A DNA stretch of 64,000 bases from assembly GCF_040938485.1 (NCBI RefSeq), contig NW_027270961.1, positions 2,604,001-2,668,000 on the forward strand, in the 5' to 3' direction. Each line of letters opens with the position of its first letter. Positions within the stretch are counted from its first letter, which is position 1. The DNA is from Diadema antillarum. Its lineage: Eukaryota. A program made the position numbers. Positions 61,401-64,000 of the stretch are shown here, piece by piece.

Positions 61401-64000
61401 CCATAAAAATTGCACTCCCATAGAGATTACACGTAAACTGGTCAAATTTGACAAGGTTACCTTCAATCCATTTTTTCGAGGTGATGTCGTAATCAAATCA
61501 AAATTGTTTAATTACATTTATGAAAGAACATTTCATAAGCTACAACATATTGAAATTTGGGTGAAAATTGGCAAAGGATTAGTGAGATACGCTCGAGTAA
61601 ACTTGAAATTTGATGACGTCATTTTGAAAATTTACTTTTTTTACTTTATTAAGAAATTTGATATCTTTTAATCATTTTATCAGCATAGCCAGCCCATGAA
61701 ATGACATGTACAACTCATCACCTTTCAGAATATGTAAAGAAAATGGGGGGTCACCGTCCATCCTGACGAGTAAAATCGGATTTAAAATTGGCGGTTTTTT
61801 GGCATAGTTGCACTGTGTATCCCCATTGACGCACGCGCGGAATTTTGAATTTGACGGGCCCGTATGACGTCATATTGAGTCGGATCGACTTGAAACTTGG
61901 TAGAAACATTCCTTGAAATTTCGGACATCCGATCCGTGTGAAAAAATTGAAAATTTCTATTTCATATTAGCTGTGCGTGCGTATATGTGCGCGCGCGTAC
62001 GCGTCCGTCCAATTTTTTCAATTTTTCAAAAAATGCTCCAAATGGTCTGAAACGTGTGCAAAAAAAATTTGAGCTGGATTTGAGCATACAAATATTTCAA
62101 CGCGCGCGTACGCGCGCGTTTTGAGATAAAAATGAATTTTGAGAATATGAGTAGAATGCGCTTAACTTGAAATATATGTGACGTAAATTTCATTGAAATA
62201 TTCCATTCCATTAATGAGATATGCATGAAAATGTGTTTTCATATAATGACGTCATAGTGACGTCACGGTCGACTGATCACTATGATTTTACTTGCGCTGT
62301 CGTCTTTGCGACATGATACATATATGTTATAAGTCTGACATTGAGAGGCAATGCACTTTCTGAGCTAACCTCTGCACAACTTTTGAGGAGAAATAAAGAA
62401 GAAGAAGAAAAACAAAGAATCCGTACAGATACAGAAGGTGATCCGAGAGGATACTCGGATCACCTAAAAAACAAAGAATCCGTACAGATACAGAAGGTGA
62501 TCCGAGAGGATACTCGGATCACCTAATCAGTACAGATACAGAAGGTGATCCGAGAGGATACTCGGATCACCTAATTAAAGCTAATTGATCATGCAAGTAT
62601 GCTCATTTTTCTTGATTTTTTATTTTTTGTTTATTTTGTGCCAATATGGTTGTCTAGTGATCCCTTAAATGTGAAATATGTGAAACTGAAAACTGATTGT
62701 CTAAGACCAAAATATAGGTGATTAATCAAACACTTATATTCGTTATACATATCAATCTCGCATATATATATCTCAGTCTTTCTTATGTAAATTATTGTTT
62801 TCATTTCTTATTTTTCTATTGTTTTATGTTTTTCATTTTCAGAAAAATTAATTTCAGCATCAGATCAGATTTTAATAGCTGAAAAACAGACTGCAAGAAA
62901 AATCAAAGTAACACAGAATCTTGCAAAACCTCATTCATTTTACACATAAACACATACAAATACGCCATTTTTGACTGACATGTGACCGTAAAATGTCAAG
63001 ACAACACCATGACCGCTGCAGGTATATACGCATATTAGGTATCAAAAGATGCGTAAGACCCTAAAGAAAAAAAAAGTCATGACGTCTTGGGGTGAGATCT
63101 TATAAATTCTGGAAATGATCGCAAAATTTACGGAGGGGGGCAAATTTCCGGGGGGGGGGGGGGCATGATGGCCCCAGTCTTTTTATAGGGTTAAGCACAA
63201 GATATAGAGGTGGAGAAGTTGACAACCGTTATATCAACTCAGTTATATAAAGTTATAGAGGTGAGGGTCAAAATTGCACTCATTGCAATAGATTTTAAGA
63301 CAACATCTATTGTTAAAGCTTACAATTTACATTTTTTCTTAAACACATAAAAGTTTTTACAACCTGGACATTATAGGCCTAGGTCTTGTTCCAAAGCTTT
63401 GACGTGTGAAGATCAAACGAAGTGGTGCCGGAGGCATTATGTTTTTGGGTTGTCCGTCCGTCCGTCCGTCCGTCCGTCATCAATTTTGTGGACAAATGCT
63501 CAAAATTTCACTATTGCCCCCATATCCATGCAATGCCTGAAGGTATTTTCTTGAAAGTTAGTGTATAGGCCTATATTATGTACTACCAAATAAAGATTCT
63601 CCAGAGAGAGTTTTGGGTCATGAGGTCAAATGTCAAGGGTCAAAGGTCAAGAAATTGTATGTTTTTCTCCATATCTCGCAAATGGTTCAAGGTGTCTTCG
63701 TGGAACTTAATATATATGCATGTACTGACTGGCCGTGATTATCTAGGGATCTAGATCTAGGTCAAGGTCAACTCCTCAAAATGTCGATCACTACTGACCT
63801 CATATCTATGCAATGCCTGCAGGATTTTTCTTGAAACTTGAAATATACATGTATTACCCAATAGATATATATTCTGTGAGAAGTTTCTTGCCAAAAGGTC
63901 AAAGGTCAAGTGCAAGGGCTAAATTTCACTTCTCCCTCCATATCTCGAAAATGGACTCAAGGTATCATCATGAAACTTATTACATACTTATGCATGTTCT

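What the first reader, a model, noticed from the sequence alone, without database searches (positions are those of the whole stretch)
62395..62574. Three stacked 5' hairpins reveal a self-targeting hotspot about 50-60 bp inside the element's own 5' end
Both nested insertions landed in the T-rich (TTC/TTTC)n tract next to the 5' hairpin, 48 and 59 bp from the terminus. C sits exactly at the 5' boundary of B. Minus-strand targets are A|T (three times, counting C) and T|T (once). The element therefore carries its own preferred target beside the hairpin a Rep protein would bind, which could act as a safe-haven or homing device.
Basis: partly seen in the sequence, partly recalled or inferred. Interest (0 to 1): 0.65.

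Follow-up and report, generated by a model that had tools for sequence, protein, structure and literature searches.

The report
Nested Helitron-type transposons, stacked ends
Four copies of one non-coding rolling-circle (Helitron-type) transposon have jumped into and beside one another at the T-rich stretch just inside their own start, leaving three identical hairpin ends in a row; the pattern is real, but this kind of self-insertion is already known.

Summary
Three exact copies of a 28-nt hairpin lie at 62437, 62496 and 62544, with a fourth at 58343. They are the 5' ends, on the minus strand, of four copies of one non-coding element that fill 53238-62574.

The order is A(48 nt) – B(59 nt) – C(whole) – B(rest) – D(whole) – A(rest). 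There are exactly four 5' ends and four 3' ends. The two interrupted copies rejoin colinearly, with no duplication.

The element has the full anatomy of a non-autonomous Helitron2/Helentron (a HINE, DINE-1-like):
- a 5' terminal inverted repeat folded into a hairpin;
- a microsatellite;
- central tandem repeats;
- a 3' subterminal inverted repeat, a palindrome and a CTAG end.

The "T-rich tract" is that microsatellite module. HINEs are already known to insert at TT in T-rich DNA without target duplication. Stacked 5' termini from self-insertion are already described for Helitron2-like FoHeli1 in fungi.

The "hotspot/homing" idea therefore rests on three events at one locus. The events are non-random against a uniform-TT null.

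Verdict: a new member of a known kind, of modest interest.

The parts
62527..62574 (-). A, 5' fragment (48 nt): 5' terminal hairpin (62544-62571) plus a small second hairpin (62527-62542, 1 mismatch). It is cut off from its remainder by the B/C/D block.
62468..62526 (-). B, 5' fragment (59 nt): hairpin 62496-62523, second hairpin 62479-62494, and the first 12 nt of the T-rich tract. It is cut off from its remainder by C.
60657..62467 (-). C, a complete copy (about 1811 nt) and the innermost, youngest insertion. It has a 5' hairpin (62437-62464), second hairpin (62420-62435), an uninterrupted T-rich microsatellite (62389-62421) and central repeats. Its 3' end has a subTIR (60693-60702), a palindrome (60671-60688) and a CTAG end at 60657-60661.
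58372..60656 (-). B, remainder (2285 nt). It starts inside the (TTC)n tract (60635-60656) and carries a B-specific T-rich block (about 59197-59356). Its 3' subTIR is at 58409-58418, its palindrome at 58387-58404, and its 3' end at 58372.
55003..58373 (-). D, a complete copy (about 3370 nt) that abuts B's 3' end head-to-tail. It has a 5' hairpin at 58343-58370 (loop variant), second hairpin at 58326-58341 and an intact tract at 58301-58326. Its central 790-bp repeat (about 2.9 copies) spans 55203-57501. Its 3' subTIR is at 55038-55047 and its palindrome at 55017-55034.
53238..55002 (-). A, remainder (1765 nt). It starts at the beginning of the T-rich tract (54964-55002). Its 3' subTIR is at 53275-53284, its palindrome at 53253-53270, and its 3' end at 53238.
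62575..62610 (.). AT-rich host flank next to A's 5' end. Together with the flank at 53200-53237 it is the outermost target; two T belong to the host site.

Best explanation
The region 53238-62574 is a nest of four copies of one non-autonomous Helitron2/Helentron-type rolling-circle transposon (a HINE, DINE-1-like), all on the minus strand.

Copy A inserted into AT-rich host DNA. Two diverged copies (B and D) then entered A at the same phosphodiester position, 46-48 nt from A's 5' end, so they now abut head-to-tail. Copy C later entered B 58-59 nt from B's 5' end.

Every event was in the host copy's orientation and made no target duplication. Each added an element core plus two T.

Inferred cause: this superfamily integrates at T|T in oligo-T DNA on one strand, and this family's own left-arm microsatellite, (TTC)n/(TTTC)n, is the T-richest sense-strand stretch of the element. 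Incoming copies therefore land there. The stack of 48- and 59-nt hairpin ends is the by-product.

Shown: the nest architecture, the module anatomy, the absence of duplication and the shared orientation.
Inferred: the order of B versus D, the role of T-richness, and any role of a RepHel protein. None is encoded in the window.
For: Architecture.
- There are four 5' ends and four 3' ends, and none lies outside the nest (nhmmer; blastn).
- The A and B fragments plus their remainders are colinear with C and D.
- The T count at the junctions fits 'core + 2 T' for each element.

Anatomy.
- The 5' hairpin has 12-nt arms that are 100% complementary (I12). [quoted passage not shown]
- The 5' hairpin folds at -14 to -16.2 kcal/mol, z about -7, matched by 0 of 200 shuffles.
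- The 3' palindrome folds at -7.7 and -7.8 kcal/mol, z -2.3 and -2.6.
- The core 10-mer occurs 12 times, three per copy.
- Central repeats are present.
- None of the 10 ORFs of at least 75 aa inside the nest matches Pfam. None of the 140 in the whole window is a Rep or a helicase.

Independent insertions. The copies are 83-94% identical to one another, and B and D are the most diverged pair (83.3%). They are therefore independent insertions, not a replicated dimer.

Tract. It is the only sense-strand 20-nt window with at least 70% T in A and C.

Literature (passages read).
- The HINE modules are subTIR, IR, microsatellite, central repeats, 3' subTIR and palindrome. The target is TT/oligo-T, there is no TSD, and the number of terminal T varies (PMC4067079; PMC7492417; PMC2374699).
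- Definition of Helitron2 (PMC3627910).
- Multiple short 5' termini arising from self-insertion in Helitron2-like FoHeli1 (PMC5148889; PMC13342296).
Against: - Only three insertion events at one locus were seen, and the locus was chosen because it looked unusual.
- B has four further sense-strand T-rich tracts (about 59197-59356) that were not hit. T-richness alone therefore does not fully predict the site.
- The same phosphodiester position was used twice (B and D), and all sites lie at the hairpin-proximal edge of the tract. This hints at more specificity than 'any oligo-T'.
- T|T cannot be proven, because 1-2 T at each junction cannot be assigned. Under one convention three of four targets read A|T, as in canonical Helitrons.
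- No autonomous partner and no empty site could be examined.
Confidence: 0.7

Rival explanations
1. Position-specific homing. The resident 5' end itself directs integration just 3' of it. This could work through a RepHel bound to the 5' hairpin, or through single-stranded DNA exposed by hairpin extrusion or by the (TTC)n/(GAA)n tract. Self-insertion at positions 46-60 would then be a built-in property, not a by-product of oligo-T preference.
For: - Three of three events fall within 11 nt of consensus position, and two use the identical position.
- All are in the host's orientation (3 of 3; chance 0.125).
- Four other T-rich tracts in B were unused.
- In FoHeli1 the repeated 5' pieces are also short (31, 65, 73 and 85 nt; PMC5148889). 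That suggests a shared tendency across Helitron2-type elements.
Against: - The sample is three events with selection bias.
- A and C have no other strongly T-rich sense-strand tract, so the two hypotheses make the same prediction there.
- The tracts of C and D are intact.
- No biochemical data on Helentron target choice appeared in the passages I read.
Confidence: 0.2
2. The stack is a local tandem duplication of the 5' end (replication slippage or unequal exchange), that is, a 59/48-nt minisatellite unrelated to transposition.
For: TRF scores it as a 59-nt repeat with 3.0 copies. The three hairpins are 100% identical, although the copies differ by 6-10% overall.
Against: - The 48- and 59-nt lengths are exactly what is missing from the two 5'-truncated bodies, at 55002 and 60656, and in the correct nested order.
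- The number of 5' ends equals the number of 3' ends, four each.
- The identity of the ends is matched by conservation of the 3' ends, which fits constraint on cis-acting sequences.
Confidence: 0.03
3. Rolling-circle by-products. The head-to-tail B-D pair or the whole array arose by bypass of the termination signal (a concatemer). Alternatively, a composite with several 5' termini moved in as one unit.
For: Tandem Helitron arrays from bypass of the terminator, and mobile composites with several 5' termini, are described (PMC4067079; PMC5148889).
Against: - B and D are the most diverged pair (83.3% over 1617 nt), so they are not sister copies from one replication.
- The remainders of A and B lie in place directly after the inner 3' ends. 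In-situ insertion predicts this; arrival of a composite does not.
Confidence: 0.05
4. Assembly artefact: collapsed or mis-joined repeat copies.
For: Repeat-rich invertebrate assemblies do contain mis-joins, and the window has one N gap (14720-14890).
Against: The nest is internally consistent to the base. The four copies are distinct in sequence and length. The gap is 38 kb away.
Confidence: 0.02

Closest known systems
HINE / DINE-1-like non-autonomous Helentrons (Drosophila DINE-1, mite HINE-Mo, oyster Cg_HINE; PMC4067079, PMC2374699, PMC7492417)
   Same: Same order of modules: a 5' subTIR 2-3 nt from the end, with an adjacent complementary IR forming a hairpin; a microsatellite in the left arm; central tandem repeats; a 3' subTIR followed by a palindrome. 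Also no coding capacity, no target duplication, terminal T, and insertion in T-rich DNA.
   Different: The microsatellite here is T-rich, (TTC)n/(TTTC)n. The DINE-1 and Cg_HINE passages describe GTCY-type repeats, so this family carries a copy of the superfamily's own target. No sequence comparison with those families was possible, because no repeat library was on hand. The host species is not identified.
Helitron2-like FoHeli1 of Fusarium, with multiple 5' termini (PMC5148889; PMC13342296)
   Same: Short 5' pieces are stacked in front of one body: the first 31, 65, 73 or 85 nt repeated, with up to five 5' termini. The authors ascribe this to self-insertion near the 5' end. The terminal design also matches: 5' hairpin, asymmetric inverted repeats, 3' hairpin.
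   Different: Those are fungal, mostly autonomous elements of 6-7 kb. Their target is reported as TNAT|A. Their multi-terminus copies are dispersed composites. Here the complete nest is still in place, so the insertion events can be read directly. Their tables of termini are supplementary and could not be seen.
Canonical Helitron (Helitron1/HLE1)
   Same: The 3' end reads CTAG (CTRR), with a palindrome 13 nt upstream. There is no target duplication. Under one boundary convention three of four targets read A|T.
   Different: There is no 5' TC. A 5' hairpin and terminal/subterminal inverted repeats are present, and canonical Helitrons lack these. A 5' TT and 3' CTAG with A|T insertion is what PMC4067079 describes for the Phytophthora 'proto-Helentron', but that passage describes its structure as typical of Helitrons.
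Helitron-like elements of Lepidoptera that interrupt (GAAA)n microsatellites (Coates et al. 2010, J Mol Evol; only the title was seen, in the reference list of PMC4344730)
   Same: Rolling-circle elements associated with and disrupting a (GAAA)n = (TTTC)n microsatellite, the motif type of the tract hit here.
   Different: The paper was not read, so it is unknown whether the microsatellite there belongs to another copy of the element.

Membership tests
Helitron2 / Helentron group, non-autonomous (HINE) | A 5' inverted repeat 0-4 nt from the 5' end that pairs with downstream bases to form a 5' hairpin (PMC3627910; PMC4067079) | tested here: met
   The repeat starts 2-3 nt from the end. The arms are 12 nt and 100% complementary with a 6-nt loop (I12). 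The fold is -14 to -16.2 kcal/mol, z about -7, matched by 0 of 200 shuffles. It is present in 4 of 4 copies.
Helitron2 / Helentron group, non-autonomous (HINE) | A 3' inverted repeat that is subterminal and lies immediately upstream of a 3' hairpin. Published distances from the 3' end are 20-30 bp (PMC3627910) or 38-60 bp (PMC4067079). | tested here: met
   [quoted passage not shown] It ends 35 nt from the 3' end and 3-4 nt upstream of the palindrome, in 4 of 4 copies.
Helitron2 / Helentron group, non-autonomous (HINE) | A palindrome or hairpin near the 3' end | tested here: met
   A 7-bp core stem with a 4-nt loop, extended to 10 bp in the fold, lies 13-15 nt from the end in 4 of 4 copies. 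Statistical support is modest: z -2.3 and -2.6, with 7 and 2 of 200 shuffles folding as well.
Helitron2 / Helentron group, non-autonomous (HINE) | Insertion between T and T in T-rich DNA | tested here: inconclusive
   All four targets contain TT or a T-run at the junction. The split of the T between element and target cannot be fixed without empty sites. The readings are T|T three times plus T|C once, or A|T three times plus T|T once.
Helitron2 / Helentron group, non-autonomous (HINE) | No target site duplication | tested here: met
   For the two interrupted copies, the pre-insertion sequence can be inferred from the uninterrupted copies. A and B rejoin with no duplicated or lost bases apart from microsatellite length variation. 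The outermost host site could not be checked.
Helitron2 / Helentron group, non-autonomous (HINE) | Left-arm microsatellite and central tandem repeats; no coding capacity | tested here: met
   The T-rich tract lies at positions about 47-87. There are repeats of about 149 bp and a 790-bp repeat of about 2.9 copies in D. None of the 10 ORFs of at least 75 aa in the nest has a Pfam match.
Helitron2 / Helentron group, non-autonomous (HINE) | An autonomous partner in the same genome with the same termini, encoding Rep/helicase (plus endonuclease for Helentrons) | not testable with these tools
   None of the 140 ORFs of at least 75 aa in the window matches a Rep or helicase family. No eukaryotic genome collection was available.
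Canonical Helitron (Helitron1) | 5' TC, 3' CTRR, a single 3' hairpin, no terminal inverted repeats, A|T target | tested here: not met
   The 3' CTAG and 3' hairpin are present. However, the 5' end reads TTAGG or TAGG rather than TC, and a 5' hairpin and inverted repeats are present.
Plain minisatellite / tandem duplication | Head-to-tail units with no matching truncated partners elsewhere | tested here: not met
   The unit lengths of 48 and 59 nt equal the pieces missing from the bodies that start at 55002 and 60656.

The most novel reading that the evidence does not exclude
Helitron2/Helentron-type elements may carry a true homing site. The resident 5' hairpin, with or without bound RepHel, together with the adjacent polypyrimidine tract, would present single-stranded T|T sites 45-60 nt inside the element. 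Incoming copies would then preferentially integrate there, in the same orientation. This would decapitate the resident copy and create composites with several 5' termini that can move on. The same rule would explain the stacked 5' termini seen in fungi and the nests seen in animals, and could seed tandem arrays.
Probability: 0.17. Interest if true: 0.6.

Novelty: new member of a known kind. Interest (0 to 1): 0.3.

Why it matters
This is a clean example, resolved to the base, of how rolling-circle transposons of the Helentron type nest. Because the whole nest is still in place, three integration events can be read directly: their position, their orientation, the absence of duplication, and two terminal T per event.

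It shows in an animal genome the same stacked 5' termini that were reported for fungal Helitron2-like elements. It also suggests a simple reason for them: a T-rich microsatellite lies next to the 5' hairpin.

In practice, such stacks are reported as 48-59-nt minisatellites by repeat finders, and they split elements in automated annotation. If the position preference proved specific, it would bear on how these elements choose targets, how copies compete, and how transposon-borne repeats grow into arrays.

Tried and rejected
- Other copies in the window. blastn of 55000-64000 against the window, word-7 blastn of the four copies, and nhmmer profiles of both ends found nothing outside 53238-62574. 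No within-window test of the hotspot was possible.
- Autonomous partner. The first Pfam scan covered 11 of the 13 ORFs of at least 120 aa. The second covered all 140 ORFs of at least 75 aa. Neither found a Rep, helicase or endonuclease.
- Host taxon. One protein-atlas look-up of the 222-aa ORF at 4587-5252 returned only unnamed eukaryotic clusters (Arthropoda, Cnidaria, Echinodermata among the few with a phylum). The species was not identified and I did not pursue it.
- Tandem-duplication, concatemer and assembly-artefact readings were considered and rejected; see the rival explanations.
- Local hopping from within the nest was rejected, because the copies differ by 6-17%.
- Not used, because unsuitable: genome contigs holds only bacteria and archaea, and the phage, plasmid and E. 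coli collections are irrelevant.
- Not seen: supplementary tables and figures that bear on this, namely the lists of multiple termini in PMC5148889 and PMC13342296, and the insertion-site figures of PMC7492417 and PMC4067079.
- Literature. Searches for position-specific self-insertion of animal HINEs returned only the two Fusarium papers and general mentions of nesting. This covers only the open-access library.

Full report
**What is there**

The window looks eukaryotic: 32-45% G+C in 2-kb windows, with one N gap at 14720-14890 that I left alone. Exons of a stabilin-like gene lie on the + strand (EGF_STAB1-2 at 34840-35187, Fasciclin at 25222-25458).

At the coordinates of the finding, a 28-nt hairpin occurs three times without any difference, at + 62437, 62496 and 62544. 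It occurs a fourth time at 58343 with one loop change. None of 100 shuffles gave a match. TRF reports the stack as a 59-nt repeat with 3.0 copies and a 48-nt repeat with 2.1 copies.

**The stack is part of a nest**

Self-comparison shows that 53238-62574 is filled by copies of one repeat family, which occurs nowhere else in the window. Read on the minus strand, the order is:

| Order | Piece | Coordinates | Length |
|---|---|---|---|
| 1 | host flank | – | – |
| 2 | A, 5' fragment | 62574..62527 | 48 nt |
| 3 | B, 5' fragment | 62526..62468 | 59 nt |
| 4 | C, complete | 62467..60657 | about 1811 nt |
| 5 | B, remainder | 60656..58372 | 2285 nt |
| 6 | D, complete | 58373..55003 | about 3370 nt |
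| 7 | A, remainder | 55002..53238 | 1765 nt |
| 8 | host flank | – | – |

- Profiles of the two ends find exactly four 5' ends and four 3' ends.
- Joined by coordinates, A and B align colinearly with the uninterrupted C and D. Nothing is duplicated or lost at the joins apart from microsatellite length.
- The 48- and 59-nt pieces are therefore the severed heads of two interrupted copies, not units of a minisatellite.
- B's 3' end and D's 5' end abut directly, so two different copies entered A at the same position.
- The copies are 83-94% identical, and B and D are the most diverged pair (83.3% over 1617 nt). These are independent insertions, not a replicated dimer.

**Anatomy of the element (minus strand)**

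- The 5' end reads TTAGGTG.... From the third or fourth base, a 12-nt arm pairs perfectly with a second arm 6 nt downstream (I12). As single-stranded DNA it folds at -14 to -16.2 kcal/mol, z about -7, matched by 0 of 200 shuffles.
- A small second hairpin follows.
- Next comes a T-rich (TTC)n/(TTTC)n microsatellite of 26-39 nt.
- Then come central repeats: units of about 149 bp, and a 790-bp repeat of about 2.9 copies in D.
- Near the 3' end, an 11-nt sequence is the perfect inverted repeat of the 5' terminal arm (I18).
- It is followed after 3-4 nt by a palindrome and, 13 nt later, by CTAG. The palindrome has a 7-bp core stem, and folds at z -2.3 and -2.6, with 7 and 2 of 200 shuffles folding as well.
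- The core 10-mer of the inverted repeat occurs 12 times in the nest, three per copy.
- The first 45 nt are identical in A, B and C, with one change in D. The last 47 nt are nearly as conserved, while the bodies differ by 6-17%. This fits constraint on cis-acting ends.
- None of the 10 ORFs of at least 75 aa in the nest matches Pfam.

**What it is**

This is, point for point, the published design of Helitron2/Helentron elements and their non-autonomous HINE or DINE-1-like derivatives:

- The 5' inverted repeat lies 0-2 nt from the end and forms a 5' hairpin. The 3' inverted repeat is subterminal and lies just upstream of the 3' hairpin (PMC3627910; passages).
- SubTIRs lie 2-4 nt from the 5' end and 38-60 bp from the 3' end, with a palindrome 8-35 bp from the 3' end. 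The target is T-rich, there is no target-site modification, and the number of terminal T varies (PMC4067079; passages and section 6).
- Oyster Cg_HINEs have a subTIR, IR and microsatellite in the left arm, central satellite-like repeats, and a 3' subTIR plus palindrome, with TT/oligo-T targets (PMC7492417; passages).
- DINE-1 inserts between TT in WTT/WTTTT (PMC2374699; passages).
- HLE2 elements insert between T and T (PMC11417382; passages).

The "T-rich tract next to the hairpin" is thus the microsatellite module of a HINE. The autonomous partner is not in the window and could not be sought elsewhere.

**The targets**

Counting T at the junctions gives:

| Junctions | T observed | T belonging to the host | T left for the inserted elements |
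|---|---|---|---|
| around A | 4 | 2, if A like the other copies carries 2 | 2 (assumed, not derived) |
| the three junctions of B and D in A | 6 | 2 (A's own, by homology) | 4, or 2 each |
| around C | 7 | 5 (B's own run, if like C's) | 2 |

For B, C and D the counts give a core plus two T each; for A the host's share is not independently known, so the same rule is assumed. How the two T are split between the ends cannot be decided without empty sites:

- With one T at each end, they read T|T three times and T|C once.
- With the variable ends described for Helentrons, all four may be T|T.

The distances of 48 and 59 nt hold under the first convention, and 47 and 60 under the second.

**Is it a hotspot?**

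The two interrupted tracts and the re-used site lie within 11 nt of each other in consensus position. All three incoming copies share the host copy's orientation (chance 0.125).

Under a null of uniform insertion at TT on both strands:

| Event | Probability |
|---|---|
| Hitting the tract in A (17 of 418 TT sites) | 0.041 |
| Hitting the tract in B (15 of 534 TT sites) | 0.028 |
| Landing exactly at a boundary of the resident insert | about 0.002 |
| Product | about 2e-6 |

An earlier count with slightly different boundaries gave similar fractions.

That null is too weak, for three reasons:

- T-rich DNA is the known target.
- In A and C the tract is the only sense-strand 20-nt window with at least 70% T, with one more on the antisense strand.
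- The locus was selected because it looked unusual.

Against a pure T-richness explanation, B has four more sense-strand T-rich tracts that were not used, and one position was used twice. My reading is that oligo-T preference explains most of the pattern. An extra pull towards the hairpin-proximal edge is possible but unproven.

**Consequences for the element (inference)**

An insertion 48-59 nt inside the 5' end separates the resident body from its 5' terminus. A transposase starting at the outermost 5' end would meet the inner copy's 3' end first. The likely mobile product would be the inner copy preceded by extra 5' heads.

That is the model proposed for FoHeli1 copies with several 5' termini (PMC5148889; passages). 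The site is therefore a safe place for the host genome, but it is fatal for the resident copy.

**Comparison with what is known**

- Stacked short 5' termini ascribed to self-insertion are described for Helitron2-like FoHeli1. [quoted passage not shown]
- Copies with two, three or five 5' termini are reported in PMC13342296.
- Helitrons lying directly next to other Helitrons are noted, and the same is anticipated for Helentrons (PMC4067079).
- A Lepidopteran Helitron-like family that disrupts (GAAA)n microsatellites is known to me only from a title in a reference list.
- My searches found no paper that maps self-insertion of an animal HINE to its own microsatellite. The library holds open-access papers only, and the supplementary tables were closed.

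**Verdict**

- The element is a new member of a known kind.
- The decisive test, a genome-wide map of nested insertions against a T-richness-matched null, could not be run because no eukaryotic genome collection was available.

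Noticed in passing
window 63417-64000 (+), and 43609-43646 (-): A (GTCC)n microsatellite (63452-63478, 6.8 units) is followed by two diverged repeats of about 240 nt that run to the window end (63490-63726 versus 63766-64000, 69%). A GTCY-type microsatellite plus central repeats is the left-arm pattern described for DINE-1 and oyster Cg_HINEs. This may therefore be a second, unrelated HINE-like element cut off by the window end. A 38-nt match in the opposite orientation lies at 43609-43646.
   Followed up: partly
window 45417-45484 and 45613-45675: Two arrays of about four copies of a 16-mer in inverted orientation, about 130 nt apart. 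They look like subterminal repeat arrays of some inverted-repeat element.
   Followed up: no
window 25222-25458, 34336-34611, 34840-35187 (+): ORF pieces match Fasciclin (E 2.8e-6), EGF_laminin (E 5e-4, below the cut-off) and the Stabilin EGF-like domain (E 9e-8). These are exons of a stabilin-like multi-domain gene on the + strand. The transposon nest lies downstream of these exons or in a later intron.
   Followed up: no
window 4587-5252 (-): A 222-aa open frame without a Pfam match. Its nearest atlas clusters are unnamed eukaryotic proteins. From memory its motifs resemble the C-terminal part of non-LTR retrotransposon ORF2 proteins; this was not tested.
   Followed up: partly
window 59197-59356 (copy B): A block specific to B holds four T-rich tracts on the element's sense strand that received no insertion. 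It is useful as an internal control for the T-richness explanation.
   Followed up: partly
window 55203-57501 (copy D): The central region of D is a 790-bp higher-order repeat of about 2.9 copies (94.6% between neighbours), built from diverged sub-repeats of about 149 bp. It is an example of a satellite-like array growing inside a HINE.
   Followed up: partly
window 32376-32526: A 21-bp repeat of 6.6 copies (63-bp higher order) lies inside a 147-aa open frame with no family match.
   Followed up: no
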